From the NCBI GenBank assembly GCA_963422525.1, contig OY730226.1:1982881-2046880 (forward strand): a DNA stretch of 64,000 nucleotides, read 5' to 3'. Below the pieces are notes generated by a model, which was given only the letters and a program-made list of their open reading frames with translations, had not been told where the DNA came from and did not search any database. Source of the DNA: Dehalococcoidia bacterium (GTDB lineage Bacteria; Chloroflexota; Dehalococcoidia; Lucifugimonadales; JADFKI01). Numbering within the stretch: position 1 is the first letter of the stretch; every line of letters starts with the position of its first letter. This document shows positions 13,988-37,401 of this stretch, piece by piece. Both the position numbers and the translations under genes were made by a program.

Positions 13988-14075
13988 TCAGGGCGAGACG
14001 CCGATGGTAAAGAGCATCTTGCGAGTTGAAACGATGCGCTTGTTGAAACCACAAGACAATGCCCATCATTGACCC
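13988..14075 (-). pseudogene. relic copy of the 3' end of the CCG-domain sdh subunit gene
   Basis: 13988-14049 aligns by eye to 14910-14971 at ~84% identity. It encodes FNKRIVSTRKMLFTIGVSP* versus the true C-terminus LNKHIISTRKMLSTIGVSP*. A 21-nt gap follows, then weaker similarity. Confidence 0.6.
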
Positions 14076-14242
14076 GCGCCGCGCGTAGGATAGCGTAATA
14101 GAACGCTAATCGCAATGATGAATGGAGACTATCTCGCTCCTTTTCTCAAGCGCCGTTGTACGATGCGCCGCGCCGGATTTGTACGCTTCCAGGCGCCAAA
14201 TCACTGCGCCCTAGCGTAAGTGTGGTATGCACTGTTCCTACT

Positions 14243-14534
14243 ATGAGAACCATCTCAAAGAAGCTACTTAGAGAGTTCTGGGAATGCCACTCTGACACGG
14301 CCGTTCCGCTCAACGATTGGCACAAAGCGGTGAAAAGGGAAGACTGGGCTTCTACGACTACACTGACAGCCAACCATCCTAACGCCCGCATTATCGGCAA
14401 CAGCAGGGCAGTGTTCGACATCAGGGGCAATCGATATAGGCTGGTGGCGCGAATCAACTATCAGTACAAGATAGTGTACATTCGCTTCATCGGCACACAC
14501 GGAATATGACCGCATAGACGCGGAGAGAGTTTAG
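14243..14534 (+). pseudogene. higB: HigB-family (RelE-fold) toxin with C-terminal frameshift
   Basis: MRTISKKLLREFWE..WHKAVKREDW..NRYRLVARINYQYKIVYIRFIGTH matches the HigB_toxin family. The ORF stops at 14509 (..GTHGI*). The canonical tail EYDRIDAERV* continues in another frame to TAG 14532-14534, 2 nt before the higA ATG. Confidence 0.75.
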
Positions 14535-14536
14535 AA

Positions 14537-14906
14537 ATGGTTGCCGTCAATCCCATCAGAACTGAGGAAGACTACGAAGCTGCGCTCGCCAGAGTGGATG
14601 ACATCTTCGAAGCGCAACCCAACACTCCTGAAGGCGATGAGCTTGATGTCCTCACTGACCTTATAGTGGCATATGAGGACAAGCATTATCCTACCGGTCC
14701 CCCTAGTCTAATCGGAGCGATAGAGTTCTGCATAGAGCAGCGCGGACTGACACAGGACGACCTGATACCTATGATTGGCAGCCGGCAGAAGATCGCGGAA
14801 GCGCTTGTCAGGCAAGCGCGACATCACTATGCCGATGGCTAGAGCGCTGCACAAGCGATTAGGAATCCCTGCCGAAGGGCTGCTGCAGGAGCCGCCCGCT
14901 CGCTAA
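14537..14906 (+). pseudogene. higA: HigA-family HTH antitoxin, frameshifted within the HTH domain
   Basis: The N-terminus (IRTEEDYEAALARVDDIFEA..) and LTQDDLIPMIGSRQKIAE match HigA. The annotated frame ends at 14842. The +1 frame from ~14808 reads SGKRDITMPMARALHKRLGIPAEGLLQEPPAR* (stop 14904-14906), which is the canonical HigA C-terminus. One extra base lies near 14807. Confidence 0.75.
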
Positions 14907-14909
14907 TCT

Positions 14910-15800
14910 TTACGGCGAGACGCCGATGGTGGACAGCATCTTGCGGGTTGAGATGATGTGCTTGTTGAGACGCATGGCGGCGGGCTCTATCCCTAGCGCC
15001 AAGCCTATCATCTGCGGCAGGTGCATAATCGGCAGGTCGATTGGCTGCTGCGCCTGCTTTGCCGCCTGCGGCTGGTAGCCGTCGAGGTTGAGGTGGCAGA
15101 GCGGGCATGGCGTGACCATGGCGTCCGCTCCCCTGCCCTTGGCGTCGAGAGTGTGATTGGAGACCATCTTCATGGAATTAGTTTGGTTGATAGTCAAGAT
15201 GGGGAAGCCGCAGCAGAGGGTCTTGCCCGGAAAGTCAACGACGGTTGCGCCGACGGCTTCGATGACCTGCTCCAGTGCGTCGGAGCGATCAGGATTTTCC
15301 GCAAAGCCGAGCGATGACGAGGGGCGCACCAGATAGCAGCCATAGAAGGGTGCCGCTTTGAAGCCGGTGAGAGGACGCACAACCATCGACTTGAGCTTGT
15401 CGATGCCTATGTCTTCTACGATAATCCAAAGCAGGTGCTTCGGGTCCGCCGTCCCCATATACTCCAAGCCCTCCTCCGCAAGGTCGGTGTTGACCTGCGA
15501 TAGATATTCGGCGTCGGATGTGAGGCGCTGATTTGCCTGTGACATCACCCCTTGGCATGTGCTGCAAATCGTCAGCAAGGGCAGGCCGGAGCGTTCGGCG
15601 AGCGCGAAGTTGCGCGCGTTCAGCGTATCGCCAAGCCGCTGGTTCTTCTCTTGCAGCACGCCCGCGCCTGTGCAGGATGCGCTCTGCATCGCCGCCGCAT
15701 CAAGATCGACGCCCAACTTGCGGCACACCTCTATCGTGGAGTTGTAAAGTTCGGGGGCGGCGCCCTGCGCCACACAGCCCGGATAAAAAGCGTATCTCAT
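14910..15800 (-). CDS. CCG-domain (HdrB-like) subunit of type E-like succinate dehydrogenase/fumarate reductase
   Basis: Two cysteine-rich CCG-type motifs (CSTCQGV.., CCGFP.., PCPLCHLNL). Its start overlaps the sdhB stop (ATGA). Confidence 0.8.
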   Translation of the reverse strand: MRYAFYPGCVAQGAAPELYNSTIEVCRKLGVDLDAAAMQSASCTGAGVLQEKNQRLGDTLNARNFALAERSGLPLLTICSTCQGVMSQANQRLTSDAEYLSQVNTDLAEEGLEYMGTADPKHLLWIIVEDIGIDKLKSMVVRPLTGFKAAPFYGCYLVRPSSSLGFAENPDRSDALEQVIEAVGATVVDFPGKTLCCGFPILTINQTNSMKMVSNHTLDAKGRGADAMVTPCPLCHLNLDGYQPQAAKQAQQPIDLPIMHLPQMIGLALGIEPAAMRLNKHIISTRKMLSTIGVSP

Positions 15801-16750
15801 TTTTTGCTTTCAACCTTCTCAAATATGCGTCGCACGTTCTCTGCGCCTGGGCGCTTCTTGTGGACAAGCGGGGGCACTTTGCCGACCTTGAATGAGCGCG
15901 CGGCGACTGGGATGAGCTTTATCATTTCCTTGATGTTCGTCTTGCCGTAGGTGTTGACGACAAGACTCGTCTCGTCCAGCCAGCCGCTGTGCTCTACCGA
16001 ATTGGCGAACGCTTCGGCATGGCGCGCGCCGTTCGTGTTGACGAAGCCGGCATCGATAGCCTTGTCACGCAAAGACATGATGCGCTCCATAGGCGCAACA
16101 CCCTTCGGGCATACCTCAACGCACTGCATGCAGCGCGTGCAGTCCCATATACCGCCGTACTCGTTAAGACTGCCCAGCCGCGCGGCATCGGCGTTATCGC
16201 GGGGGTCTGCGACGAAGCGGTAAGATTTTGCGAGCGCCGCAGGACCTACAAAGTTCTTGTCCACCTCGAGCGATGTGCAGTCCGACACGCACGCCCCGCA
16301 CATAATGCAGCTCATCACGCCTGCCAGATGCACCATATCTTCGTTGGGGGCGATATGCTCGGCTTCAGGTTCGGGTCCGCTATACTGCATCCAAGGTTCG
16401 ATCGCGCGAACCTTGTCCCAGTGAAGCGCCATGTCCGTTACCAGATCTTTAACGACGGGCATATTCCCCATGGGCTCGACTGTGATAGGCGCATCACCGC
16501 GCATCGCATCGATGACCTTCGTGTTGCAGGCTAGGCCTGCCTGTCCGTTAATCCGCATCCCACAAGAGCCACAGATTGCGCTGCGACATGAGCACCTGAG
16601 CGTCAGGCTGCCGTCCACCTCTTCGCGTATGCGTATCAGTCCGTCAAGCACGGTGGACGACTCGTCCATCTCAAGAGTGTACGACTGAAAATGCGGGGCT
16701 TTTCCACCCTCTTCAGGGTTGAACCGCTTGACGCTAAATGTTACTTCCAT
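15797..16750 (-). CDS. sdhB: succinate dehydrogenase/fumarate reductase iron-sulfur subunit
   Basis: 2Fe-2S (CSCRSAICGSCGMRING), 4Fe-4S (CIMCGACVSDC) and 3Fe-4S (CTRCMQCVEVCPKG) cluster motifs. Confidence 0.9.
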   Translation of the reverse strand: MEVTFSVKRFNPEEGGKAPHFQSYTLEMDESSTVLDGLIRIREEVDGSLTLRCSCRSAICGSCGMRINGQAGLACNTKVIDAMRGDAPITVEPMGNMPVVKDLVTDMALHWDKVRAIEPWMQYSGPEPEAEHIAPNEDMVHLAGVMSCIMCGACVSDCTSLEVDKNFVGPAALAKSYRFVADPRDNADAARLGSLNEYGGIWDCTRCMQCVEVCPKGVAPMERIMSLRDKAIDAGFVNTNGARHAEAFANSVEHSGWLDETSLVVNTYGKTNIKEMIKLIPVAARSFKVGKVPPLVHKKRPGAENVRRIFEKVESKK

Positions 16751-16850
16751 ATATTCGTCCTGTAGCTAGTGGGTCAGTATGTCGGTTAGTCTGTGGATGA
16801 GTTAGGAACATCTTATTGAATAATGACACCGCGCAATGCAACTATTTTAG

Positions 16851-16950
16851 ATTCCTCGCTTCGGTCGGAATGACAAATTGAAGAGCTCGGTCGGAACGAC
16901 AGGGCGAGGAGCTCGGTCAGAGTGACAAGGTGGCAGAGCTTGGAATGACA
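16851..16950. repeat. four imperfect tandem ~26-27 nt repeats in the sdhA-sdhB intergenic region
   Basis: Core GCTYGGTCRGARYGACA recurs starting at 16858, 16885, 16911 and 16938 (last copy shortened). The first copy is embedded in a hairpin-capable GATTCCTCGCTTCGGTCGGAATGAC element. Confidence 0.6.
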
Positions 16951-16961
16951 ATATGCATAAG

Positions 16962-18641
16962 TCAGTAGCTTCGTACTTGCGGCTGCCAGTCGGTTATGAC
17001 GACAGGCAGGTAATCCACCTGCGGCCCATCATCGGTGCGCTTCACCAGAATATGACGCAGCCAGTTTTCATCATCTCTGTCAGGCGCGTCGGTGCGGGTA
17101 TGCGCTCCCCTGCTCTCGTTGCGCTCAATCGCCGAGAGCGCAATCGCCTCCGCGCAGTCAGTCATGAAGCCGAGTTCGAGTGTGAACAACAAGTTGGTAT
17201 TGAAGGTTTTGCCCTTATCTGGCACCGCCACGTTGTTGTAGCGCTCGCGCAGGCTGCGCAGTTCCGCAAGCGCCGTCTCCATCCCGTTCTGTTCACGATA
17301 CACGGCGAGGTGTTTGTTCATCGTGTCACCCATCTCTCGGCGAATCTTGCCGAACATCTCACCGTCGCTGTCATTGTCTAGCAGACGCCGAATATGCAGG
17401 CGGTCGGGCTCCGACGCCGCATCCGTTACCCCTGAGTTATGCACCTTCGACGCCGCCATTTGCGCCGCATGCTCGCCGGAGCGTCTGCCGAACACCAGCG
17501 TATCGAGCAGCGAGTTCGCGCCCAGGCGGTTGCCTCCGTGCACGCTTACGCACGCTGCTTCGCCTGCCGCATATAGCCCCGCAATCTCAGTCTGCCCGTC
17601 CACATCAGTCTTGATGCCCCCCATCTGGTAGTGCATGCCGGGACGGATGGGGATAGGTTCGCGCAGCAGGTCCACATTCGCGAAGTCCCGCCCTATCTCG
17701 CGTATCTGGCTCAGACGCTCGTTGATGACGGCTTCCCCAAGATGGCGAACATCCAGCATCACACAGCCGTCTATACCCCTGCCCTCGTTGATTTCCGTCT
17801 GCTCGGCGCGTGATACCACATCACGCGAGGCGAGCTCCATCATGTTCGGGGCGTATCGTTCCATGAAACGCTCGCCATCGGCGTTCAGCAGATATGCCCC
17901 TTCGCCGCGCGCGCCCTCAGTGATGAGCACACCGCTCCCTTTCAGCGTCGTCGGGTGGTACTGCACCATCTCCATGTCCATCAGGGACGCCCCCGCCCTG
18001 TAGGCTGCAGACATGCCGTCTCCGGTGCATATCAGGGCGTTGGTGCTCGGCTCGAAGACGCGTCCAAGCCCGCCGGACGCTACGATGACAGCCTTGGAAC
18101 GCACGACATGAATTTCGCCGCTCCGAATCTCCATTATGACTGCGCCCGCGCACTCGCCATCCTCAACGATGAGCGACAGCAGAAACCACTCTTCATAGAT
18201 GCGGACACCAGCCTTCATCACCTGCTCATAGAGCACATGAAGAAGCGCTTGTCCCGTAAAGTCAGACACGAAGAAGGTGCGAGCCTGACGCTGCCCGCCG
18301 AATGCGCGCGTGCCAAGCCGTCCCTCATCATCCCGATTGAAGATGACGCCCATGTGTTCCATGTCGATAACTTCGGCGCCGGCCTCACGACACATAACTG
18401 CGATTGCGTCCTGATCTCCGAGATAGTCGCTCCCCTTAATAGTATCGTATGCGTGCTCCCGCCAGTCGTCGCCCCTATCCGTAAGGGCAGCGTTGATGCC
18501 CCCTTGCGCTGCGTTCGAGTGGCTGCGCACAGGATGCACTTTTGTTACGACAGCGACATTCGCGCCCGCCGCCACCGCCGCAAGAGCGGCACGCATGCCA
18601 GCCAAGCCCGCGCCGATTATAAGCACATCATGATCAAACAT
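16962..18641 (-). CDS. sdhA: succinate dehydrogenase/fumarate reductase flavoprotein subunit
   Basis: [19 protein letters not shown] motif, the covalent-FAD histidine context [13 protein letters not shown], and active-site HPT and RLGANSL blocks. Confidence 0.95.
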
Positions 18642-18882
18642 ACTTGATACCTCAAGTGAAATAATGTCCGCTAGAAGTTATCACATTGCGCCTGCTTTCA
18701 CAACATAAATGGACGATAAGGCAACACACTATACAAGATACAATATACGCATCCTACGCTGCGCACGCTCGACGAATCCGCTGCGAACCACAGCCCGCAT
18801 CCTCAACTGCCTAGATGGCCCCCCGCAGGTAGCGCAAAAATCTGGCAACAACGGCGTATTCGTAGTAACATGGTTGGCATGA

Positions 18883-18958
18883 GCCAACGTAGCTCAGTCG
18901 GTAGAGCAGCTGTTTCGTAAACAGCAGGTCGGTGGTTCGAGTCCACTCGTTGGCTCCA
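18883..18958 (+). tRNA. tRNA-Thr (anticodon CGU), CCA encoded
   Basis: Manual cloverleaf: acceptor GCCAACG/CGTTGGC, D arm GCTC-AGTCGGTA-GAGC, anticodon arm GCTGT-TTCGTAA-ACAGC, T arm GGTGG-TTCGAGT-CCACT, discriminator T, then CCA. Confidence 0.95.
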
Positions 18959-19057
18959 TCAGACGCACAGAAAGGGGAACCATAGAACGAAGCCCCAGAC
19001 TTAAAGAAAGGTGAGTCTCGTCCAGGAAGCGCTTGTGACAAGGCAACCGGAAGAGCC

Positions 19058-21106
19058 ATGGAAAAAACACTAGTCACCACCATCAAGGTCTTACTTGCCT
19101 TATCGCTTGCCATGCCTTTCGTCGTCATGGGTGGCTCATTGCCGGAGGCGTTGTACCCCTACATTCTAGGCAAGGCGTTGTATTTCCGTCTTGCCGTAGA
19201 AATCGCCTTTGCCGCTTGGCTCTTCCTCATCATCCGCTTTCCGGAGTACCGCCTCCCTAGTTCCTGGCTCCTACTCGCCATCGTCGCATATCTTGTTGTC
19301 GCACTTGCGGCATCCTTCGCCGGCGTCAGCATCTCGCGCAGCATATGGTCAAACTACGAGCGCATGCAGGGGTGGATCTCCCTCGCGCACTACACCGCTT
19401 TCGCTCTAATGCTCGCCTCCGTCTTGCGCACCTTCCGACATTGGCAGGGCGTCCTCAACATCAATCTCCTTGCCAGCTTCGGCGTGGGTTTGCTTAGCAT
19501 TTACAGCATTTCAACCGGGAGCGAATCGCGCATTAGCGTCACCTTTGGGAACCCGTCTTTTCTGGCGACCTACGTCCTAGTCAACGCTTTTATCGCCGCC
19601 GCTTTTCTTGCGCATTCACTTGTGGCGCCCCGTGAACAGCCGACGCGAAGGTCAAGGTCAAGATCCCGGGCGCGGCGCAACTCGCCTAATATACTTTCTC
19701 GAACGCTTATGCGCTCATTCTGGGTGGCGGTACTGTGTCTTAACCTGCTGGCGCTGAACTACACCGGAACCAGGGGAGCGACGGTAGGGCTTGTAGCCGG
19801 AATAGTCTGTGTCCTAGTCGGCTGCGTTGTATGGGGTGAGAGACGGTACTTGAGGCTAGCCTGCGCGTCGACGCTCATCGGCATTCTAGCGCTTGGAGCG
19901 GCGACCCTCTTGCTGATAGGCAGCCCGATACTGGACAGGTTAGGGCAGTTCAGCCCGACGTTGCAGCGCGCCATAGACATCACGCCGGAAACCTTCTCGT
20001 TACGAAGCAGGATAGACTCCGCCGAGATTGGCTTGGAAGCGTTCGGCGCCAAGCCTTTATTAGGCTGGGGACCAGAGAACTACTACGCCGCCTACGACAG
20101 ATACATCGACGGCAAGGCCGTCCTCAATCTTGAACGATTCGACCAAGCGCATAACCGCATCGTGGAGGAACTCGTTACAACCGGCGTCATCGGGCTCGCA
20201 ACGTACTTAGCGCTCTGGCTTTGCCTCGGATGGCTCTTCATCACCAAAACTCGAAGGCTTCCTCTCCATGGCCGTCTGTTCACGATAGTTATAGGCGGAG
20301 CATTTGTCGCATATTTCGTACAGAACCTATTCTTGTTCGATACTCCGACTGCCGCCGTGCAGATCTACCTGCTGATAGGATTCGCGATCTATCTGGGCAG
20401 CGTGCCCGCCGCATCCGCATTCGACGCCAAGTGGACGCCTCAGACCGCCATTCGTCCCCATGAGGGAGTCATCCGCCGCATCGAGACCGCAGTTACAGGA
20501 ACGACCATGTCCCAAGTAGCCGTCGCCGCCGTGATTGCCGTGCCTGCGCTCTGGTTATGCTATCTTCTGGTGGTCGCACCTTACATCGGTGCGACAAACA
20601 CATTCGCCGCACTCACCGGAGATCGAACGGCCGAAGAGCGATTCTCCGCCTACGATACGGCGGTATCCACTTCGCCGGGATACGCAAACGAAACCGTGCG
20701 CCTCTTCATTAACTTCGTCATCGACCACCGAGAAAGCCTGTCTTTCGACGAGCGAGCGACTGCCATCGAGATGACAAGACGCGATGTCGCAGCCGGACTA
20801 CAAAGAGAACCTTTGGAGTGGAGGTTCCATATGTCGATGGCGCAGCTCTACAACCGAGAATCGGGAAGATCCCCCGAACTCGTGCGCCTAGCGCGACAGC
20901 ATACCGACGCAGCGGCGGCGATTGCTCCCGGACGCATCGAGGTGCTGCAACTCAAGGTGCAACAACATATCTATGAAGGCAATGCGGAAGCGGCAGTCAA
21001 TCTGATAGACCACTACTTTGAGGAGTCTGAACATTTTCTTGAAAAGGACTCCACAGTCTATCGTCGCCTCGAGAAGATGCGCAAACTCATCGTCGAGGAA
21101 CAATAA
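19058..21106 (+). CDS. O-antigen ligase/polymerase (Wzy_C) family membrane protein with soluble helical-repeat C-terminal domain
   Basis: More than 10 TM helices. AHNRIVEELVTTGVIGL matches the Wzy_C signature (H-N..e.l.e.G..G). The C-terminal ~200 aa are helical/TPR-like. Confidence 0.7.
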   Translation: MEKTLVTTIKVLLALSLAMPFVVMGGSLPEALYPYILGKALYFRLAVEIAFAAWLFLIIRFPEYRLPSSWLLLAIVAYLVVALAASFAGVSISRSIWSNYERMQGWISLAHYTAFALMLASVLRTFRHWQGVLNINLLASFGVGLLSIYSISTGSESRISVTFGNPSFLATYVLVNAFIAAAFLAHSLVAPREQPTRRSRSRSRARRNSPNILSRTLMRSFWVAVLCLNLLALNYTGTRGATVGLVAGIVCVLVGCVVWGERRYLRLACASTLIGILALGAATLLLIGSPILDRLGQFSPTLQRAIDITPETFSLRSRIDSAEIGLEAFGAKPLLGWGPENYYAAYDRYIDGKAVLNLERFDQAHNRIVEELVTTGVIGLATYLALWLCLGWLFITKTRRLPLHGRLFTIVIGGAFVAYFVQNLFLFDTPTAAVQIYLLIGFAIYLGSVPAASAFDAKWTPQTAIRPHEGVIRRIETAVTGTTMSQVAVAAVIAVPALWLCYLLVVAPYIGATNTFAALTGDRTAEERFSAYDTAVSTSPGYANETVRLFINFVIDHRESLSFDERATAIEMTRRDVAAGLQREPLEWRFHMSMAQLYNRESGRSPELVRLARQHTDAAAAIAPGRIEVLQLKVQQHIYEGNAEAAVNLIDHYFEESEHFLEKDSTVYRRLEKMRKLIVEEQ

Positions 21107-21777
21107 TGCAACGACTAAAACGGATCAACGAAATGCCCGCATACAAACGCCCATACGACGTATCCCTCATCATAATCTGCGGCATCATCGGATTACCGTT
21201 CTGGCTGCCTCTTTGCCTGCTCGCCACCATTGCGATATGGCTGAACGACAGAGGTCCGATCCTCTACACGCAAGAAAGACTGAGCAAGGACGGGCAGCGC
21301 TTTCGCATCATAAAGTTCCGCACCATGGTTCAGGACGCCGAAAAGGAGACCGGACCGGTGTGGGCGGTACGGAACGACCCACGCATCACGCGCACAGGAA
21401 GGCTGCTGCGCCCCATACATCTTGATGAGCTGCCCCAGGTCATCAATGTCCTGCGCGGCGAGATGAGTTTGGTGGGTCCTCGACCGGAGCGCCCCGAACT
21501 GACGGAACGGTTCGAGAGGGATGTGCCCGGCTTCAAAGAGCGCCTGACCGTCCTGCCCGGCATAACGGGACTCGCCCATGTGCGTGGCAGCTACTGGACG
21601 CCGCCCCGCCAACAATTGCGCTACGACAATCTGTACATCAAGACGATGGGACCTGTGTTAGACACCAAAATCATCCTGATGGCAGTCGTCAGAGTGCTCA
21701 GCCGTTTTCTTCCCTCGAGCGAAGAGTCACCCACTCGCAGTAAAGCACGCAGTCGCCGCTCCGCATCTGCCGACTAA
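21106..21777 (+). CDS. undecaprenyl-phosphate sugar phosphotransferase (bacterial sugar transferase family)
   Basis: [43 protein letters not shown]. The start overlaps the previous stop. Confidence 0.9.
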
Positions 21778-21866
21778 CGCTGACGAAAGAACATCTCCGA
21801 AGTTAGCGATCAGAAATGCAAGCGGGCGCCGGCATCGGCACAGCCCGCTGCGCTACTTCCTGAGTT

Positions 21867-23861: not shown

Positions 23862-24200
23862 TCGATTCTCCTTCCAATGCGCCGACGAAGAGCGCCTTCA
23901 GCGGCAGCCTACCCAAAAGGTGGATTCGGCAAAACTCGCATAAGCCATCTTCCCAAAGCGCAAGAGGCAGTTCCATTCGTCAATCTTACGACTGCAACAG
24001 CATTGAGGGCAAGCGAATATATGAACCCTGAACACTGAATTTCGGGACTGGGGATGAAGGGAGCTGCATGGATGAACAGAATTTATGGGATGGGGAAGGA
24101 TATTGTCATGCCCCGATAGTGGCAAGACAATTGCAGACGTCCTATAATTGCAACCAAGTATAGACGCAGACGACAGGCGGCGTTGACAAGAGGGAGCGAC

Positions 24201-26844: not shown

Positions 26845-26858
26845 GCGAGGAGCGGCAG

Positions 26859-27908: not shown

Positions 27909-28098
27909 GGTGTGGCATACATGAGCAAGCGCAATATCCTGTCCTTATCCTTACCCTACAGCGTTCTCCTATTTGGGCGGTCTAGCTCTTCACACTCAGG
28001 CTCCTTCGACACGCTCAGGGTGAGATTCTAGCCATCCTCCATTAATGGAGAACGAGGGATATATTTCCGCTTTAGCGCAAATAACGCGCTTCTGATAC

Positions 28099-28713: not shown

Positions 28714-28785
28714 CGGACGGGACGGGGCTGACATGGATAGACAGGACGGGCAGGATTGTAAGTTTTCGGTTAGAAGCCAAGGGCT

Positions 28786-30390: not shown

Positions 30391-30495
30391 ATGGGAGGGC
30401 TTAACTTATCAGTCGGTCGGCGGAAAATGAGTGTTCTTAAAGCGGGCATTCTTATGGATGCCCACTTTGTGTTTTCCTACATGACGGCAATTGCG

Positions 30496-33039
30496 CTAGG
30501 CATTATACACGCCATCCAAGTTCGCTAACACGCCTGAAAACTCATCCTCGCTGAACACAAGCTTAAAAGTGCCTTTCGCAGGACCTTCTCTAACCGTCAT
30601 ATTTCCGTAATTGTTGTAAGCGTTTTGAAGAGTTTCCAGCACGCGTTCCTTGTAATCGGTGTCAGGGCTGTCGCGCAGATGCGCGCCTTTCGTCTCGAAC
30701 ACCAGCACATGCGGCTTTCCGTCGGTTTCGCCGCCCATAGCGACGAAGTCCGGCCAGATGCGATCTCGCTTCCAGCCGCGCAGATAGTAATCACCCTGCT
30801 GCCGCACGGCGACTCGATGCCACCAACGCAGCGCTTTATGCTCGTCGAGGTAACGCGCGAAACTGCGCTCAAGATTGGAGTCGAACTGCTGAGTGTACAC
30901 AGGCTCGAACAGGCTAAGCTGTAGCGCCGACGTCCCGCCTTTTCCCGTCATCAACCCAGCATCTACAGGCGCAGGTATGTCGTAGCGCTCCACCATGCGG
31001 AAGTTAGGTTTGCCGTCTTCCAATTTTAAGTCAAAGCGGATTTCGCCCCGGCTAAGTTTGCCGCGAAATGCCCGTTCAGCCTGCTTTTCCAGCGCATCGG
31101 TTACATAGTCGCGCAACGCAAACGCCAGATATGAACGCTTGTCGTAGATCTCATCATCAGCGTCGCCGCCGGCGCGCAGTTTTTCAACCAACTTCTGCGC
31201 GATGCGCGCCGCCTGCCACGGGTTCGGCACAACATCGGACAAACGGCGCGCAAACCATGTTATCTGCACCGTCTTGTCAATATACAACTCGCGGTCGGCG
31301 TGAAACATCGGCAGAGCGTCTCCCACATCAACCGTCGCCGACTGCCACTTGGCACCGTCCCCAAAGCTGTTTTGCAGATCTGAAACCTCAATAGCGCTCC
31401 AGTCTATGCTCGGCAGGATGTGACTCTGGTAATCCAACTCGCGCCATCCGCCATTATCCTCGTGCATCACCTTCGGCAAAAATATATCCGCGTTCTTGAA
31501 CCGCTCACGCCGCTTTACGGTAACTCGCTGAAAATCATCCGCATTGCTGGTTACCGCGTCGCCCAATCCGTCCAACCCTTCCTGCTCCAACCCCAATTTG
31601 ACATGCTCGACGGCGACGCCCACCTGTGTGTTGTGGCAATACACATAGCACTGGTCAAGGGGCTCTCGTCTTGTGCGCTGGGCGTGCGGCTGACGCATCA
31701 CGCGTCCCACAAGCTGCGTTATGGCGGTTTTCGCACGCGTGTTGTCCAGCATCACCAGCAAGTACGCGAATGGGCAGTCCCATCCCTCTTTCAGCGCGTC
31801 CTTAGTGATTATCCAGCGCACCGGCGAAAACTCCGACAGCAAGTCCAGTCCTGCGATTTCGTCCGTCTGAGACGATTTGACCTTCACGGCTTCAGCGGCA
31901 ACGCCCAAGTTCTGGATCAAGTAGTCACGCGCATCCTCGGAGTGAATGCGGTCTCCGTCGCGCTGATTCTTGCCGGTGCGTTCCACGCGCACTACGGCGA
32001 TAGGGCGAATGTACCTTCCTTCGCTCTGTTGCAACGACTGCGCCTCATCGTTAAGCCGTTCAAGCTCATCGTGCGCCTGCTGCAGCGTGTAATGCCAATC
32101 GGCGTTAGTGAAGGATGTCACCTGCACCGGCAGTTTTATCATCTCCTCCTGTTTCAATTCTACGCCGCTGATGTCCACCAGCAGGTTGCTAATTCCCCGA
32201 TTGGGCGTAGCGCTCAATTCAATGACGAGACGAGGATCGATACGATTGACGGAGCGCGCGAACTCTCTTTGCGTCTTATCGGATTTTCCATAAGCCTTGT
32301 GCGCCTCGTCGAGAATGACTACGGGACGCAGCATTTTGAACACATTGAATAGGCTGTGCTTTACAGGTCCGCCCTGTGAAGATCGATCCAGATCCGGATA
32401 ATCCTTTAGAAGGCTGCCATCCCCAAGCAAGTCATCGCTATCCGGGAACAGCGTGGGATAGCGCCCCGAATCTCGGAACATTCGCAGAAACTCTCTGCCC
32501 TTCTGACGATTGGCGGCCGGCAACATCAGCAGCATCACGCACATATAGTTAGCAGTGTCCGCCAGCGTGAACGGCTCGTCCTTTTCCAGAAGTTTCACTC
32601 GACCGCCGCTGCCGCGCTCCAGCATCTGCCGATAGGGATGTTCTCGATTCCAGAGGGCGGCTTTGGTCTGCTCGTATATGGCGCGACTCGGAGTTATCCA
32701 CAGCGTAAGCCCCGTCGGACGGTTCAGTCGTTCCAGCGTCGCAGCGGCGAGCAGTGTCTTGCCTCCGCCGGTCGGCACTTTAAGGCATGCATGCGGAATA
32801 GGACGACCGGCTTCATCGGTGCGGCTCACATATTCGCCGGCGCTCTCCGCAACGCCGCCGGAATCCGCCAATCGTTTCCATGCGCTTTTGGGATAGTTAC
32901 GCACATCATCCGGGACGTCCAGGCCGGCGGCTTGCAAGGCTGTTACGGCGGTTTTCGCTTGCAGCCGCGCCGTCTCCAGCGCGTCGCGCCAGCGCGTGAA
33001 AGATTCCAAGGCAGCGAGCTGATACTCTTTCAGTTCCAT
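30496..33039 (-). CDS. res: type III-like restriction enzyme Res subunit (SF2 DEAH helicase with C-terminal PD-(D/E)xK nuclease)
   Basis: Helicase motifs VPTGGGKT (I), VILDEAHKA (II), ELSATP (III) and QLVGRVMRQP (VI). The C-terminus carries WPDFVAM...VLVFETKG, a PD...ExK nuclease motif. Confidence 0.85.
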   Translation of the reverse strand: MELKEYQLAALESFTRWRDALETARLQAKTAVTALQAAGLDVPDDVRNYPKSAWKRLADSGGVAESAGEYVSRTDEAGRPIPHACLKVPTGGGKTLLAAATLERLNRPTGLTLWITPSRAIYEQTKAALWNREHPYRQMLERGSGGRVKLLEKDEPFTLADTANYMCVMLLMLPAANRQKGREFLRMFRDSGRYPTLFPDSDDLLGDGSLLKDYPDLDRSSQGGPVKHSLFNVFKMLRPVVILDEAHKAYGKSDKTQREFARSVNRIDPRLVIELSATPNRGISNLLVDISGVELKQEEMIKLPVQVTSFTNADWHYTLQQAHDELERLNDEAQSLQQSEGRYIRPIAVVRVERTGKNQRDGDRIHSEDARDYLIQNLGVAAEAVKVKSSQTDEIAGLDLLSEFSPVRWIITKDALKEGWDCPFAYLLVMLDNTRAKTAITQLVGRVMRQPHAQRTRREPLDQCYVYCHNTQVGVAVEHVKLGLEQEGLDGLGDAVTSNADDFQRVTVKRRERFKNADIFLPKVMHEDNGGWRELDYQSHILPSIDWSAIEVSDLQNSFGDGAKWQSATVDVGDALPMFHADRELYIDKTVQITWFARRLSDVVPNPWQAARIAQKLVEKLRAGGDADDEIYDKRSYLAFALRDYVTDALEKQAERAFRGKLSRGEIRFDLKLEDGKPNFRMVERYDIPAPVDAGLMTGKGGTSALQLSLFEPVYTQQFDSNLERSFARYLDEHKALRWWHRVAVRQQGDYYLRGWKRDRIWPDFVAMGGETDGKPHVLVFETKGAHLRDSPDTDYKERVLETLQNAYNNYGNMTVREGPAKGTFKLVFSEDEFSGVLANLDGVYNA

Positions 33040-33051
33040 CGTCTATCACTC

Positions 33052-33276
33052 TTACTCTTCGGGCTTCCGCTGCGGTTCGGCAAGCGAAATACCCATCTCG
33101 CGGGCGCGCCGCTCCAAACGTTCTTCACGCTCAGCAATCTCCTGATACGCCCGCGCGTAACCTTGTTTGACCCCCGCTTCGATACCCCTTTCGATACCTT
33201 CTTCAATCCCTTCTTCGCGCGCCTCCAACCACAACTTTCTGCGCCATTTACGCCTTTGATCAAGCGCCCAAAACAT
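33052..33276 (-). CDS. truncated duplicate of the C-terminal coiled-coil half of the 148-aa protein
   Basis: 74 aa, nearly identical to residues ~71-148 of the 33383..33829 product but lacking the TM region and one GIEx unit. Probably a by-product of the duplication. Confidence 0.35.
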   Translation of the reverse strand: MFWALDQRRKWRRKLWLEAREEGIEEGIERGIEAGVKQGYARAYQEIAEREERLERRAREMGISLAEPQRKPEE

Positions 33277-33280
33277 AAGC

Positions 33281-33370
33281 CTAACTCCTCTTCACCTGCA
33301 CCTTATCCAGCGCATTGCGCCAGCGCATGAAAGATTCCAAGGCAGCTATCTGATACTCTTTCAGTTCCAT
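33281..33370 (-). pseudogene. orphan duplicated res 5' fragment
   Basis: Encodes MELKEYQIAALESFMRWRNALDKVQVKRS*. The first ~21 codons match the res N-terminus MELKEYQLAALESFTRWRDAL. Confidence 0.6.
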
Positions 33371-33382
33371 CGTCTATCGCTC

Positions 33383-33829
33383 TTACTCCTCCCGCTTCCG
33401 CTGCGGTTCGGCAAGCGAAATGCCCATCTCGCGGGCGCGCCGCTCCAAACGTTCTTCACGCTCAGCAATCTCCTGATACGCCTGCGCGTAACCTTGTTTG
33501 ACCCCCGCTTCGATACCCTTTTCGATACCCCTTTCGATACCCTCTTCAATCCCCTCTTCGCGCGCCTCCAACCACAACTTTCTGCGCCATTTACGCCTTT
33601 GATCAAGCGCCCAAAACATAAGCCTAACTCCTCCCTCAGTCAGCACGGCGATCATCCCGTACAACGCTACCCCCAAGTCCACCAGCGTCGCCGCAGTCCG
33701 CAAACTTGCTTGCGTCTGCCATACTCCCTGCTCCGACCAGTATGTCAACAGGGCCGTCACCGCGAACACTCCGAAAGGGACGAACATCGCATGACGGCGA
33801 ATCCAACGCGTCTCATCTGAACCGTCCAT
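33383..33829 (-). CDS. small membrane protein with charged coiled-coil tail containing GIEx tetrapeptide repeats
   Basis: Two hydrophobic helices, then KWRRKLWLEAREEGIEEGIERGIEKGIEAGVKQGY..EREERLERRAREMG. Its stop lies 12 nt upstream of the duplicated res start. Confidence 0.5.
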   Translation of the reverse strand: MDGSDETRWIRRHAMFVPFGVFAVTALLTYWSEQGVWQTQASLRTAATLVDLGVALYGMIAVLTEGGVRLMFWALDQRRKWRRKLWLEAREEGIEEGIERGIEKGIEAGVKQGYAQAYQEIAEREERLERRAREMGISLAEPQRKREE

Positions 33830-33923
33830 AGTCCAACCAGTATAACATCATCACAATACCTACACTTCATCACATGCGCGCCGACACATCAACAAGATCC
33901 GCTTCTCGCTCCTTAACCCCCCG

Positions 33924-33995
33924 TCAGATGCATCTCATACGGAAGCTGGCAGAAGGCTACTCCCATTGCAGTGAGCTCGCACTGACCGATACTTC
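33924..33995 (-). pseudogene. relic copy of the mod 3' end
   Basis: 33928-33995 aligns to mod 34497-34566 with 8 mismatches and a 2-nt gap (~86% identity). It encodes ..IGQCELTAMGVAFCQLPYEMH.. versus the Mod C-terminus YIGQRELTAMGITFCQLPYEMHR*. It abuts the hicA stop. Confidence 0.7.
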
Positions 33996-34215
33996 AAAGA
34001 GCAACGCAAAACTCACTAACCGTGAGCCCCGCAGCACGAATAAGGCTTCGTAGAGTACCCTTAGCGATTGTCCGAGAATTTGGCACAGAAAGAGTGGCGT
34101 GTTCACCTGATTTAGTTAGGATTATATGACTGCCTCGTTGCCGCGCGACATTCCAGCCGAAGCGTTGAAAATTGCGCGCCGTTTGCGCTCCGCTGAGCGT
34201 AAGCAGTTGCGGCAT
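33994..34215 (-). CDS. hicA: HicA-family mRNA interferase toxin
   Basis: The 73-aa sequence LSGAQTARNFQRFGWNVARQRGSHIILTK..TLSVPNSRTIAKGTLRSLIRAAGL is the YcfA/HicA signature. The ATG overlaps the hicB TAA (TAATG). Confidence 0.85.
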   Translation of the reverse strand: MPQLLTLSGAQTARNFQRFGWNVARQRGSHIILTKSGEHATLSVPNSRTIAKGTLRSLIRAAGLTVSEFCVAL

Positions 34216-34421
34216 TACACCATCACTTCCAGCTGGCGCGTCTCAATAGTAAGCGGCATACCTTGCTCTGCTCTCACCTCAATGCAATCAACTATCGCCT
34301 GCCGTATGTTCTCCAAAGCTTCATCTTTGGTTATGCCTTGGCTAACGCAACCGGGGATAGACGGGCATTCAACAATCCAAACGCCATCCTCGTCCCTGTC
34401 TAATGTTACGGTTAGTTTCAT
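34215..34421 (-). CDS. hicB: HicB-family antitoxin
   Basis: MKLTVTLDRDEDGVWIVECPSIPGCVSQGITKDEALENIRQAI matches the HicB N-terminal RNase H-like fold. A GGAGG SD lies 6 nt upstream of the ATG at 34421. Confidence 0.85.
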   Translation of the reverse strand: MKLTVTLDRDEDGVWIVECPSIPGCVSQGITKDEALENIRQAIVDCIEVRAEQGMPLTIETRQLEVMV

Positions 34422-34490
34422 TGAGCGCCTCCCTGAGCGCGGTGTACGCATTTATCTGTGGCAAGATAATAGCACAACCCATTGCTACTC

Positions 34491-36409
34491 TCACCTATGC
34501 ATCTCATACGGAAGCTGGCAGAATGTTATCCCCATCGCCGTAAGCTCGCGCTGACCGATGTACTTCCCCGGCGCAAACACGACCGCCTGCCTGCCATTCC
34601 CGCGACCGGCGCTAATGCGCCTTGCTCGCTCCGCGTTCAGCATCGCCTCATTGCCGCCCAGCCAGCCGACATCAGCCTCATACAGCAGGTAATAGTCCGT
34701 GGTTTCACTCCTATAAAACAGCCCGTCCTCGTTCTGCGGCGACAGCGAGGCTTCGCCGGCTGACACCCCCGACGCCGTGTGCAGCAGGTACGCCGCCAGC
34801 GCAGAGTACGATGGCAGCGCATCCCCCGTCAGCATCGACTCAACATCTATCGGCTCGCCCAGTTCGCAGTAGGTAAACGACCCGCCAAGCCCTTCTTGCA
34901 GCGACTTGTCACGCGCGTTGGGAACGCCATTGATGACCCGCTGCACGCGTTCGGCGGTAATGGTGTCTGCGTAGTCCTCGCACTCTACGAGTATGAACTT
35001 GCGGCTGCCGCCATCCTCTTTGTTGAGCGCAAGCACGGCGTGCGCTGTTGTGCCGCTGCCCGCGAACGAGTCGAGGATGATGTCGCTCTTATCCGACCCT
35101 ATCCGCAAAATCTGCTGAACCAAAGTATGCGGCTTCGGGTTCTGGAAAGGGCTGTCACTATCATCGAATATCTGCAAGACGATCCTGCGTGCATTCGTGG
35201 TGCTTCCAACCGCATCGTTTCCCCAAATGGTTATTGGAACTACGCCTTGCTGCACATCTTGCAAGTATCGTTTTAGCTGCGGTCTGCCGTCTCCATTTTT
35301 GCCGAAATAGATGCGCTTGTCCGCAAGCCAAGCAGCCATCGTTTCTCGATTAGTAATCCAGCATCTCCCCAGAGGTGGATTATGCACTTCACCTGTATTG
35401 GGATTTGTGAGCGGATAGTCGTAATCCGAGGTGTAGGATTTTACGCTTAAATTATCTGTCGCCCATAATCCTCGCCCATCGTGGTCGTCATGCCGATATG
35501 CTTTATTATGGGCGTCCGTGCGAGGCAACAAGTTGCGCCGCCAACCGACAGCGTCATCCTTTGTTTGTATTCGACGCTTGGCGTAGCACAGAACGAAGTC
35601 GTGGTTATCAGAGAAGTACTTGGCGTCATTCTGCGGGCTGTTCTTCTTCTGCCAGATGATGTTCGTTACAAAATTATCAGCCCCAAAAATCTCATCCATC
35701 ATCATGCGCAGGTGATGCTGCTCGTTGTCGTCTATGGATATGAATATAGCGCCATCGTCCGACAGCAGCTCCCGCAGCAGATGCAGCCTCGGCCACATCA
35801 TGCACAGCCACTTGTCGTGCCGTTCCAAATCCTCCCCGTCAACCGGCCTGTTCTCCGCAAGCCACTGCCGCATCAGCGGGCTGTTCACGCGGTCGTTATA
35901 GACCCACCCTTCTTTGCCGGTGTTGTACGGCGGGTCTATGTAGATGCACTTGACGCGCCCGGCGTAGCGCGGCAGCAGCGCCTTGAGCGCGTGCAGGTTG
36001 TCGCCGTGGATTATTAGGTTGTCGTCAGTCAAGCCTTCAGATAAAATATCATGACCGACCGACCGACCGACCGACCGACCGACCGACCGACCGACCGACC
36101 GACCGACCGACCGACCGACCGACCGACCGACCGACCGACCGACCGACCGACCGACCGACCGACCGACCGACCGACCGACCGACCGACCGACCGACCGACC
36201 GACCGACCGACCGACCGACCGACCGACCGACCGACCGACCGACCGACCGACCGACCGACCGACCTCATCGCCTTTGAAAGAACATTTGCACTATCAGGCG
36301 GCCGAGAACCAAGAACCGACCTCTCCGCGTCCGGCTCCAACGGGCGGTATGGCACACTCAAATGGTGCGCGTAAATGTGCTGTTTCCCCTTAAAGTCCAG
36401 CGTAGGCAT
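34491..36409 (-). CDS. mod: type III-like beta-class DNA methyltransferase Mod, split into two reading frames by an internal tetranucleotide repeat tract
   Basis: The N-terminal piece (36409..36029, GAGGAG SD) encodes MPTLDFKGKQHIYAHHLSVPYRPLEPD.., a Mod-type LxWxGK N-terminus, followed by (RSVG)n. The catalytic piece (36032..34491, TTG) encodes NLIIHGDNLHALKALLPRYAGRVKCIYIDPPYNTG (motif IV) followed by DSFAGSGTTAHAV (motif I). The frames differ by one 4-nt unit. Confidence 0.85.
36053..36264. repeat. perfect simple sequence repeat (GACC)53, which is (GGTC)53 on the coding strand
   Basis: 212 nt of uninterrupted 4-nt periodicity, counted from the sequence and confirmed by the 17.5 TDRP units of the + strand shadow ORF. 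Flanked by TCAT on both sides. Confidence 0.98.
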
Positions 36410-37364: not shown

Positions 37365-37401
37365 TGCTGTGCCTCGCGCCGGTTTTTGGATTGTCCCCGC
37401 A

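What the first reader, a model, noticed from the sequence alone, without database searches (positions are those of the whole stretch)
13988..34566. Recurrent pattern across two loci: recombinase-less toxin-antitoxin minicassettes that duplicate ~60-70 nt of a target gene's 3' end
Two unrelated TA pairs (higBA at 14.2 kb, hicBA at 34.2 kb) share one footprint: intact gene 3' end, TA pair, diverged direct repeat of that 3' end. Repeat length (62-70 nt) and divergence (~84-86%) are similar at both sites. Seeing the footprint twice in 64 kb suggests a common insertion route. Candidates include trans-acting site-specific recombination targeting gene ends, or recombination-driven capture in which the incoming DNA carries an allelic gene end. 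It looks less like coincidence. I am not aware of a described mobile-element class consisting only of a TA pair with surrogate gene ends, but this needs a genome-wide check.
Basis: inference. Interest (0 to 1): 0.65.

Follow-up and report, generated by a model that had tools for sequence, protein, structure and literature searches.

The report
Recombination scars beside two toxin-antitoxin pairs
Two toxin-antitoxin gene pairs in this Dehalococcoidia genome are each followed by a decayed 62-70-base copy of the neighbouring gene's end, but comparison with related genomes indicates these copies are scars of sloppy recombination at two highly variable genome slots, not the ends of a new kind of mobile element.

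Summary
13988-14049 repeats 14910-14971 (86%, E 4e-12). 33928-33995 repeats 34497-34566 (86%, E 8e-15). Each pair brackets a TA pair, and no recombinase domain occurs anywhere in the 64 kb.

The "TA-only mobile cassette" reading fails the comparative tests.
- Site 1: higBA occupies the same slot in five related genomes, and none has the duplicate. The duplicate is specific to the window's lineage, younger than the TA, and adjoins a lineage-specific 575-aa gene. The window's higB and higA are both frameshifted.
- Site 2: an empty-site relative (L165) and two filled relatives (L164, L166) show a real 0.57-kb insertion with a 63-70-nt duplication.
- However, hicBA between mod and res is probably a native layout of related type III R-M loci, so the only clearly novel junction is hicA|pseudo-end.
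- No shared boundary motif exists. None of the other TA loci examined (five higBA, seven hicBA/HicB) and none of 0.89 Mb of related DNA shows the footprint.

In relatives, higBA moves between species by homologous recombination, carrying about 250-380 nt of the flanking gene's end.

Best explanation: recombination between alternative alleles of hypervariable slots, with one illegitimate junction. This resembles homology-facilitated illegitimate recombination or "insertion with long target duplication". It is a new example of a known kind.

The parts
14910..15800 (-). Site 1 host gene: intact CCG-domain (sdh/frd- or HdrB-type) subunit, last gene of an sdhA-sdhB-CCG operon
   Evidence: Pfam CCG E 5e-26. 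Relatives are 88-95% identical at protein level. Upstream genes are Fer2_3 and FAD_binding_2.
14910..14971 (-). Copy A: live 3' end of the CCG gene (…LNKHIISTRKMLSTIGVSP*)
   Evidence: It clusters with relatives' gene ends (46-56 of 63 nt identical).
14537..14906 (+). higA-like antitoxin gene, split by a 1-nt insertion near 14805 (ORFs 14537-14842 and 14775-14906)
   Evidence: Alignment with L001, L170 and L171, where the gene is one 123-aa ORF. No Pfam hit; the partner role is inferred from position and homology.
14243..14509 (+). higB toxin gene, truncated to 88 aa by a 2-nt deletion near 14501 (homologs are 97 aa)
   Evidence: PF09907 E 6e-24. Homolog lengths; alignment.
13988..14049 (-). 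Copy B: pseudo 3' end of the CCG gene including a stop codon (…FNKRIVSTRKMLFTIGVSP*), found only in the window's lineage
   Evidence: Absent from all 80 related loci. It carries replacements at residues invariant in 14 relatives (H>R, S>F, L>F).
12011..13738 (-). Lineage-specific 575-aa gene (OpuAC substrate-binding domain plus a sub-threshold PPC match) lying downstream of copy B in the same orientation
   Evidence: Pfam OpuAC E 8e-39, PPC E 2.8e-4 (below the curated cut-off). No counterpart at this position in any relative.
11724..11900 (+). Small Zn-ribbon gene: the conserved far border of the site-1 slot. In 7 relatives it ends 5-17 nt from the CCG stop.
34491..36032 (-). Site 2 host gene: type III R-M methyltransferase (mod) body
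   Evidence: PF01555 E 5.5e-39. 100% match to P0001.
34497..34566 (-). Copy A2: live 3' end of mod (…IGQRELTAMGITFCQLPYEMH, then R*)
   Evidence: 63/63 identical to the uninterrupted mod end of L165.
34215..34421 (-). hicB antitoxin (68 aa), intact
   Evidence: PF15919 E 1.5e-8. P0121 is 100% identical; the family is typically 68 aa.
33994..34215 (-). hicA toxin (73 aa), intact. Its stop codon overlaps the first 2 nt of copy B2.
   Evidence: PF07927 E 4.8e-14. Intact in L164 and L166. Junction read.
33913..33995 (-). Copy B2 plus its tail: displaced mod 3' end (…IGQCELTAMGVAFCQLPYEMHLTGG*). It sits at the ancestral position, continuous with the downstream flank as in L165.
   Evidence: Codon-position differences from A2 are 3/0/5. 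Half of it is deleted in L166.
33383..33829 (-). 148-aa gene of unknown function lying between mod and res in this lineage (also in L164 and L165)
32967..33633 (-). Tandem duplication (2 units of ~336 nt, 92% identical) of the C-terminal half of the 148-aa gene plus the first 73 nt of res. Copy number is 1 in L166, 2 in the window and L164, and 3 in L165.
30496..33039 (-). Type III restriction subunit (res), intact. Normally 12-30 nt downstream of mod, here 1.45 kb away.
   Evidence: PF04851 E 1e-11. Spacing measured in 80 related loci.

Best explanation
Both footprints are scars of recombination at two hypervariable genome slots. They are not the termini of a TA-only mobile element.

The slots are (1) the 5-17-nt gap between the convergent CCG gene and a Zn-ribbon gene, and (2) the 12-30-nt gap between mod and res of a type III R-M system. 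In different genomes each slot holds different addiction or defence genes.

Shown: these occupants are exchanged among related genomes by homologous recombination in the flanking genes, so an incoming tract carries the neighbour's 3' end with it.

Inferred: in the window's lineage, one such exchange at each slot was resolved homologously on one side only. The other side was joined illegitimately, 62-70 nt upstream of the resident gene's stop codon. This is like homology-facilitated illegitimate recombination. The result is an intact gene end, then the TA pair, then a displaced stub of the other allele's gene end, which has since decayed.

At site 1 the event combined a higBA-bearing allele with an allele carrying the 575-aa gene. 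At site 2 it combined a mod-hicBA-type R-M allele with a mod-148aa-res-type allele.
For: Slots with alternative occupants:
- Site 1 is empty in 7 relatives. Others hold higBA (L001, L170-172), decayed higA plus a DNA methylase (L010), another HigA-like gene (L011), or an RHH-like gene plus a 756-aa gene (L012).
- At site 2, 12-30 nt separate mod and res in about 85% of 80 loci. About ten loci have inserts with varied cargo.

Transfer by homologous recombination, including the gene end:
- L001 vs L171 is 98.8% identical in higBA but 86.8% in the CCG gene. The 98-100% tract starts ~250-380 nt inside the CCG 3' end.

Site 1, duplication uncoupled from the TA:
- None of 80 loci has a pseudo-end, including the TA-bearing ones.
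- B is closest to the window's own A (86% vs ~78% to the others), and the distances are additive.
- The DNA beyond B is lineage-specific.

Site 2:
- L165 is an empty site in which B2's flank is continuous with mod.
- L168/L169 show mod stub, hicBA, res stubs in that order, and L088 has a HicB-domain gene between mod and res, so mod-hicBA is a native layout.
- B2 differs from A2 only at codon positions 1 and 3 (3/0/5). Its third-position mismatch to L165 (5/21) matches the locus-wide orthologous level, while A2 shows 0/21.
- Synonymous mismatch to L165 drops from 30% to 8.5% at ~34847, suggesting an exchanged tract that ends at A2.
- mod recognition domains differ among the window, L164 and L165, showing frequent allelic recombination.

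Ongoing decay of the scars: L166 has lost half of B2. B2's tail has a 1-nt deletion relative to L165.

Precedent: displaced 3' ends attributed to homology-facilitated illegitimate recombination in T6SS and Rhs loci (PMC5361080).
Against: - No genome was found in which a B-type or B2-type sequence is the live gene end, so the donor and recipient alleles are inferred, not observed.
- The codon-position argument rests on 8-10 substitutions. P is about 0.04 for site 2 alone and not significant when both sites are pooled.
- The change-point p of 1e-4 is uncorrected for about 150 candidate positions.
- At site 1, B carries radical replacements. These fit neutral decay of an in-situ duplicate equally well.
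- Similar stub lengths (62 and 70 nt) at two sites, and a site-2 junction placed exactly at hicA's stop codon, are coincidences under this model.
- The similarity between the window's post-A2 codons and the L168 mod tail is only 8-9 of 13 nt, and the spacer as a whole is not significantly similar.
Confidence: 0.55

Rival explanations
1. [quoted passage not shown] This duplicated 62-70 nt of the resident sequence. Both copies were identical at first. The copy no longer needed for the gene then drifted.
For: - Site 2 meets the published operational criteria: direct repeats longer than 30 bp, a related genome with a single copy at the empty site, and no mobility genes (criteria from PMC2853133).
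- A2 is identical to the empty-site sequence, so every difference lies on B2's branch.
- B2's 86% falls between the coding (~90%) and intergenic (~70%) identity to L165, as expected for a sequence released from selection part-way.
- B's distances are additive on the window's own branch.
- An ordinary tandem duplication lies right beside site 2.
Against: - B2 has no second-codon-position changes, and its replacements are conservative (I>V, T>A).
- A2 has 0/21 synonymous differences from L165 against 19% in the adjoining codons (P about 0.01). That fits better if A2 was exchanged and B2 is the older ortholog.
- At site 1 the duplication is not tied to the TA's arrival.
- The mechanism of long target duplication is itself unknown.
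Confidence: 0.27
2. One reading: a class of mobile element consisting only of a TA pair plus a surrogate gene end, inserted at gene 3' ends by a site-specific recombinase encoded elsewhere in the genome.
For: - Two TA pairs in 64 kb show the same architecture with similar repeat length and divergence.
- No recombinase is needed locally.
- A trans-acting enzyme elsewhere in the genome cannot be excluded with the data held.
Against: - higBA occupies the same slot in five other genomes without repeats.
- 84-88% identical hicBA pairs in two other contexts (L168/L169; L174-L177) have no repeats, and no flanking motif is shared.
- The two sites share no boundary sequence or inverted repeat.
- The left boundary at site 2 is probably a native mod-hicB junction.
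- 14% divergence between the repeats, with the differences spread over 36 nt, is not what a recombinase core site gives.
- No further case turned up in 0.89 Mb of related DNA.
Confidence: 0.04
3. Remnants of larger integrative islands that targeted gene 3' ends. The integrase and most cargo were later deleted, and the TA pair survived because it is addictive.
For: - TA pairs do outlive their neighbours here. In L168/L169, hicBA survives between stubs of a deleted mod and res.
- Deletions are eroding the site-2 region in L166.
Against: - No relative shows a larger island or an integrase at either slot.
- The empty site L165 differs from the filled sites by only 0.57 kb.
- At site 1 the TA predates the repeat.
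Confidence: 0.05
4. Metagenome assembly artefact that joins strain variants at the gene end.
For: The site-1 structure is seen in only one assembly.
Against: - The site-2 structure recurs in three independent assemblies that differ by 3-7%.
- Copies that are 86% identical are too diverged to cause a false overlap join.
- Flanking genes are intact and syntenic with relatives.
Confidence: 0.02

Closest known systems
Insertion with long target duplication (Nobusato et al. 2000; Furuta, Abe & Kobayashi 2010, PMC2853133)
   Same: A small addiction-type gene unit with no transposase or integrase, flanked by direct repeats longer than 30 bp. The repeats correspond to a single copy in a related genome with an empty site. 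Some published repeats overlap a gene's 3' end, as in the H. influenzae cases. Site 2 fits on all of these points.
   Different: The published cases carry R-M genes, and their repeats are mostly 90-100% identical. Here the cargo is a TA pair embedded inside an R-M operon, and the repeats are 86% identical. At site 1 the repeat is not coupled to the TA's insertion.
Displacement of gene 3' ends by homology-facilitated illegitimate recombination (Rhs C-terminal displacement; T6SS effector-immunity arrays, Kirchberger et al. 2017, PMC5361080; de Vries & Wackernagel 2002)
   Same: An incoming allele recombines homologously in the conserved upstream part of a gene and illegitimately at its other end. 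The gene stays intact with new downstream cargo, and the old 3' end is pushed downstream as an orphan stub.
   Different: Those systems displace long, variable toxin-encoding 3' regions together with immunity genes. Here the stubs are only 62-83 nt and have no function. Natural competence in these Dehalococcoidia is unknown.
Minimal mobile elements of Neisseria (Saunders & Snyder 2002; Snyder et al. 2007; definition quoted in PMC3082526)
   Same: [quoted passage not shown] Both slots behave this way.
   Different: Minimal mobile elements leave no duplicated gene ends. The footprint here would be an imprecise variant of that exchange.
Chromosomal TA 'genomic islets' such as ccdO157 (Van Melderen & Saavedra De Bast 2009, PMC2654758)
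   Same: A TA pair forming an islet on its own between conserved chromosomal genes, with patchy distribution among relatives.
   Different: No flanking gene-end duplication is described for those islets in the text read here.

Membership tests
Insertion with long target duplication (Furuta et al. 2010 criteria) | Insert flanked by direct repeats longer than 30 bp | tested here: met
   62 nt at site 1 and 63-70 nt at site 2, about 86% identical.
Insertion with long target duplication (Furuta et al. 2010 criteria) | A related genome lacks the insert and has one copy of the repeated sequence at that place | tested here: met
   Site 2: L165 has a single mod end continuous with B2's flank. Site 1: empty sites exist (L002 and others), but TA-bearing relatives also have a single copy, so the duplication is not linked to the TA insert.
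Insertion with long target duplication (Furuta et al. 2010 criteria) | No other mobility genes in or beside the insert | tested here: met
   No integrase or transposase Pfam domain in about 50 proteins of the window.
Insertion with long target duplication (Furuta et al. 2010 criteria) | Inserted sequence contains both R and M genes | tested here: not met
   The cargo is hicBA or higBA, not R-M genes.
Homology-facilitated illegitimate recombination / 3'-end displacement | Intact gene, then new cargo, then a displaced homologous 3' stub in the same orientation | tested here: met
   Both sites.
Homology-facilitated illegitimate recombination / 3'-end displacement | Evidence of a homologous crossover on the anchor side (mosaic divergence within the anchor gene) | tested here: inconclusive
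   Site 2: synonymous mismatch to L165 falls from 30% to 8.5% at ~34847, p 1e-4 uncorrected. Site 1 was not testable because no donor or recipient alleles were found. A clear tract is seen in relatives L001/L171.
Homology-facilitated illegitimate recombination / 3'-end displacement | The stub derives from a different allele than the live end | tested here: inconclusive
   Codon-position pattern is 3/0/5 at site 2 and 2/3/5 at site 1. A2 shows 0/21 and B2 5/21 third-position mismatches to L165. No natural allele with a B-type live end was found.
Integrative element using a tyrosine/serine recombinase at a gene 3' end | Recombinase gene within the element | tested here: not met
   None in the window. 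None beside the same TA pairs in relatives.
Integrative element using a tyrosine/serine recombinase at a gene 3' end | Conserved att core shared by independent insertions of the same element | tested here: not met
   No shared boundary sequence between the two sites or among the three hicBA contexts. Other occurrences lack repeats.
Integrative element using a tyrosine/serine recombinase at a gene 3' end | A trans-acting recombinase encoded elsewhere in the genome | not testable with these tools
   Only 64 kb of the 2.7-Mb source contig is held.
Minimal mobile element (Neisseria definition) | Two conserved genes with different whole-gene cassettes between them in different genomes | tested here: met
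   Site 1. Site 2.
Minimal mobile element (Neisseria definition) | Incorporation by homologous recombination in the flanks | tested here: met
   The L001/L171 high-identity tract spans the CCG 3' end, higBA and the upstream flank. This is shown for relatives and inferred for the window.
Integron gene cassette | attC-type imperfect inverted repeat at the cassette end; integron integrase | tested here: not met
   No inverted repeat at either boundary. No integrase in the window.
Type II TA systems HigBA and HicAB | Adjacent toxin and antitoxin genes with the family domains | tested here: met
   PF09907 for HigB; PF07927 and PF15919 for HicA and HicB. The HigA partner is assigned by homology to 123-aa neighbours of HigB in L170/L171. 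higBA is frameshifted in the window.

The most novel reading that the evidence does not exclude
Addiction-filtered allele replacement. When a slot occupied by a TA pair is overwritten by an incoming allele that lacks the pair, ordinary double-crossover recombinants lose the antitoxin and are killed or arrested. Only rare additive recombinants survive. These keep the TA and join the incoming DNA illegitimately beyond it. Displaced gene-end stubs would therefore be specifically enriched next to TA pairs. This would be the TA counterpart of the resistance of chromosomal R-M complexes to replacement (Handa et al. 2001; title seen). It would explain why both short diverged repeats in this window bracket TA pairs.
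Probability: 0.12. Interest if true: 0.6.

Novelty: new member of a known kind. Interest (0 to 1): 0.3.

Why it matters
If the main reading is right, nothing fundamentally new is present. The locus is still a clean natural example, in an uncultured SAR202-type Dehalococcoidia lineage, of how addiction and defence genes are shuffled between genomes without dedicated mobility enzymes. The shuffling uses homologous recombination in flanking genes, and occasional one-sided illegitimate joins leave gene-end stubs. Such stubs could serve as markers for past allele replacement in MAG collections. The open question worth testing is whether the stubs are enriched next to TA or R-M modules, because these modules punish their own replacement.

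Tried and rejected
- Exact-sequence look-ups of the CCG protein, the mod protein and the Zn-ribbon protein found nothing. Sister-strain evidence for site 1 could therefore not be obtained.
- I searched for a pseudo gene end downstream of the CCG gene in all 80 related loci. None was found.
- About ten other inserts between mod and res were examined as possible further cases (L087, L088, L094, L117/119, L140, L154/155). Cargo varies (VapBC-like pair, HTH/ImmA-like pair, DUF1016-like, RAYT with REPs, ClpP-like), and none has a duplicated mod end.
- The self-repeat scan of 0.89 Mb of relatives turned up L048 and L065, where a 944-aa gene is flanked by 130-143-nt repeats at the site-1 slot. These repeats are a multi-copy intergenic element, also present twice in L055, so they are not gene-end duplications.
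- My first reading of 11724-11894 as a remnant of a large gene was wrong. It is an intact Zn-ribbon gene, and the window instead lacks the adjacent Oxidored_molyb gene.
- The proposed homology between the window's post-A2 spacer and L168's mod tail and spacer is not significant overall (z = -0.1). Only the first 13 nt resemble each other, so it is kept as suggestive only.
- A sharp divergence step exactly at the repeat (window vs L165) was not seen in raw identity. A step appears only at synonymous sites, about 350 nt upstream.
- Integron, tRNA-targeting and IS explanations were rejected. The only tRNA is at 18883, there are no inverted repeats at the boundaries, and there is no transposase.

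Full report
**What is in the sequence**

The window is from a SAR202-type Dehalococcoidia genome. The site-1 gene has relatives 88-95% identical at protein level in many Dehalococcoidia MAGs, and the window's own mod, HicB and HigB proteins are on record on a 2.7-Mb contig.

Both reported repeat pairs exist.
- 13992-14049 vs 14914-14971 is 86% over 58 nt (E 3.9e-12).
- 33928-33995 vs 34497-34566 is 86% over 70 nt (E 7.6e-15).

At site 1 the live copy is the 3' end of an intact CCG-domain gene (14910-15800, minus strand), the last gene of an sdhA-sdhB-CCG operon. Reading down the minus strand from that gene:
- higA (14537-14906) and higB (14243-14509), both on the plus strand;
- 193 nt of spacer;
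- the pseudo-copy B (14049 to 13988), which is in frame and keeps a stop codon;
- 250 nt further on, a 575-aa OpuAC/PPC gene.

At site 2 the live copy A2 is the 3' end of a type III mod gene (34491-36032). It is followed by:
- hicB (34215-34421) and hicA (33994-34215);
- the pseudo-copy B2 (33995 to 33928), with a short tail ending in a stop;
- a 148-aa gene;
- a 336-nt tandem duplication;
- res (30496-33039).

None of about 50 proteins across the window has an integrase, transposase or other recombinase domain.

**Site 1: the TA pair is older than the duplication**

In seven close relatives, the CCG stop codon is followed within 5-17 nt by the end of a convergent Zn-ribbon gene (window 11724-11900). 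The window thus carries about 3 kb of extra DNA here, not just a TA pair.

The same slot holds different occupants in other relatives:
- higBA in L001, L170, L171 and L172;
- a decayed higA plus an orphan DNA methylase in L010;
- at least the 3' part of higA in L005, whose contig ends there;
- a different HigA-like gene in L011;
- an RHH-like gene plus a 756-aa gene in L012.

None of the 80 related loci has a second copy of the CCG 3' end, and neither do L170-L172.

Copy B is closest to the window's own copy A (86%) and about 78% identical to every relative. Its distances are additive on the window's branch, so it arose after the split from the nearest relative, L010. By contrast, higBA has diverged from L001 and L171 as much as the flanking genes have (77% vs 81-83%).

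The DNA from higB's start codon to the Zn-ribbon gene has no counterpart in any relative except B itself.

In the window, higB has a 2-nt deletion and higA a 1-nt insertion relative to three relatives, and HigB homologs are 97 aa against 88 aa here. The pair appears to be decaying.

**How this TA pair travels**

TA-bearing lineages form two separate clades on a tree of the flanking genes. L001 and L171 are 98.8% identical in higBA but only 86.8% identical in the CCG gene. The 98-100% tract begins about 250-380 nt inside the CCG 3' end, runs through higA and higB, and ends about 400 nt beyond, inside flanks that are 76-92% identical.

This is direct evidence that higBA is passed between species by homologous recombination in the flanking DNA, taking the neighbour's gene end with it. 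It leaves no duplication when both crossovers are homologous.

**Site 2: a real insertion, but only one novel junction**

In about 85% of 80 related type III loci, res starts 12-30 nt after mod. The window has 1.45 kb between them.

Three relatives define the states.
- L164 (97% identical) has the same structure.
- L166 (93-96% identical) has it too, with a later deletion that removed half of B2 and part of the 148-aa gene.
- L165 has an uninterrupted mod whose last 63 nt are identical to A2. It then continues into B2's tail and downstream flank.

So 0.57 kb containing hicBA is inserted relative to L165, with a 63-70-nt duplication.

However, the nearest hicBA in another Dehalococcoidia genome (L168/L169, HicB 88% identical) lies between two sets of stubs. 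On one side is a stub of a mod 3' end (…MGITFCQIPYEIHRSG*, E 2e-5). On the other are the first seven codons of res fused to a res C-terminal stub (E 3e-10). L088 also has a HicB-domain gene between mod and res.

A mod-hicBA-res layout therefore exists independently. The A2-to-hicB boundary is probably an ordinary gene junction, which leaves hicA|B2 as the only clearly novel junction. There, hicA's stop codon overlaps the first two bases of B2.

**Allelic stub or in-situ duplicate?**

Locus-wide, window vs L165 identity at third codon positions is 81-85%.

| Comparison | Result |
|---|---|
| A2 vs L165, third-position mismatches | 0 of 21 |
| B2 vs L165, third-position mismatches | 5 of 21 |
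| B2 vs A2, differences by codon position | 3/0/5 |
| B vs A (site 1), differences by codon position | 2/3/5 |

B2's replacements are conservative apart from one recent window-specific R>C change.

Synonymous mismatch between the window's mod and L165 falls from 30% to 8.5% at about 34847 (p 1e-4 before correction). The mod recognition domain differs among the window, L164 and L165, so allelic recombination in mod is frequent.

These points favour B2 as the older resident mod end. On that reading, A2 belongs to a tract exchanged together with hicBA. The numbers are small, though, and an in-situ duplication followed by drift is not excluded.

At site 1 the pattern includes changes at residues invariant in 14 relatives. 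This shows decay but does not discriminate between the two models.

**Tests of the mobile-cassette idea**

- The two sites share no boundary sequence and have no inverted repeats at their boundaries.
- Three contexts of closely related hicBA share nothing outside the ORFs: inside the R-M locus, in the decayed R-M locus, and 11 nt after a TPP-enzyme gene in L174-L177. Only the window's lineage has repeats.
- About ten other inserts between mod and res have no duplicated mod end.
- A self-repeat scan of 0.89 Mb of related DNA found no other gene-end duplication. The one look-alike (L048/L065) is a multi-copy intergenic repeat.
- The window contains no other TA pair.

The rest of the source genome could not be scanned.

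**Mechanism proposed**

Shown:
- both slots are hypervariable;
- their occupants are exchanged by homologous recombination that includes the flanking gene end;
- site 2 has an empty-site relative;
- the stubs are decaying.

Inferred: at each slot, one exchange between structurally different alleles was homologous on one side and illegitimate on the other. The illegitimate join fell 62-70 nt upstream of the resident stop codon, so a stub of one allele's gene end was retained beyond the TA pair.

This is the logic of homology-facilitated illegitimate recombination, which has been invoked for displaced 3' ends in T6SS and Rhs loci (PMC5361080). The outcome also satisfies most operational criteria of "insertion with long target duplication", described for R-M systems without mobility genes (PMC2853133). 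The slots themselves behave like Neisseria minimal mobile elements (definition in PMC3082526).

I put about 0.55 on the allelic-stub version, 0.27 on in-situ long target duplication, and 0.04 on a TA-only element moved by a trans-acting recombinase. The remainder goes to a decayed island or an assembly artefact. The latter is unlikely for site 2, which recurs in three assemblies.

**Why both scars sit next to TA pairs**

The simplest answer is that TA pairs are typical occupants of such slots. A more interesting possibility is that an active TA pair penalises its own replacement, so only additive recombinants that keep it survive. This has a title-level precedent for R-M complexes (Handa et al. 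2001, cited), but it is speculation here (probability about 0.12).

**Verdict**

The recombination-with-allelic-gene-end route is plausible, and it is demonstrated in relatives. A new class of TA minicassette is not supported. This is a new example of known kinds of recombination scar, of modest interest.

Noticed in passing
window 36053-36264 (within ORF 36029-36409, minus strand): A tetranucleotide tract (GGTC on the coding strand, 53 copies) lies inside the 5' part of the type III mod gene, between a conserved mod N-terminus (MPTLDFKGK…) and the body. Copy number is 53, 44, 28 and 48 in the window, L164, L165 and L166. In the window and L165 the N-terminus is out of frame with the body. This looks like a phase-variable mod gene, currently OFF.
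   Followed up: partly
window ~35085-35670: The central (target-recognition) part of mod does not align between the window and L164 (otherwise 97% identical) or L165. It does align with L166. This suggests recognition-domain swapping among close relatives.
   Followed up: partly
window 32967-33633: A 336-nt tandem duplication (92% identical) covers the C-terminal half of the 148-aa gene plus the first 73 nt of res. It leaves a pseudo res 5' end. Copy number is 1 in L166, 2 in the window and L164, and 3 in L165, where res itself is missing.
   Followed up: partly
window 36594-39016 (and 39021-41883): Three tandem paralogous genes of 256-262 aa (75-80% nt identity) lie just upstream of the R-M locus, followed by 254-aa and 704-aa genes. 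None has a Pfam hit. The paralog array aligns differently in L166, suggesting copy-number variation.
   Followed up: no
window 33383-33829: A 148-aa gene of unknown function, with a hydrophobic N-terminal half and a glutamate-rich EEGIE-type repeat, sits between mod and res in the window, L164 and L165. The repeat number differs in L165.
   Followed up: no
window 11667-11724: The window lacks a ~1.1-kb Oxidored_molyb gene that lies between the Ldh-like gene and the Zn-ribbon gene in all 13 close relatives and in L170. A different Oxidored_molyb/Mo-co_dimer gene is at 44678-45796.
   Followed up: partly
L168 3860-4680, L169: A decayed type III R-M locus in another Dehalococcoidia genome. Only a mod 3' stub and res stubs remain, while the hicBA pair between them is intact. 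The TA pair appears to have outlived the R-M system that housed it.
   Followed up: yes
L088 6721-9605: Between mod and res of a distant type III system lie a VapBC-like pair and a 637-aa protein whose N-terminal domain is 72% identical to the window's HicB.
   Followed up: no
L048 6039-9359, L065 6084-9288, L055 6733-7248: At the same slot downstream of the CCG gene in more distant relatives, a 944-aa gene with no Pfam hit is flanked by 130-143-nt copies of a multi-copy intergenic repeat containing a TTGACA-type motif.
   Followed up: partly
L001 ~5650-6950 vs L171: A 98-100% identical tract (CCG 3' end, higBA and 400 nt beyond) lies inside flanks that are 76-92% identical. This looks like a recent inter-species recombination event carrying a TA pair.
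   Followed up: yes
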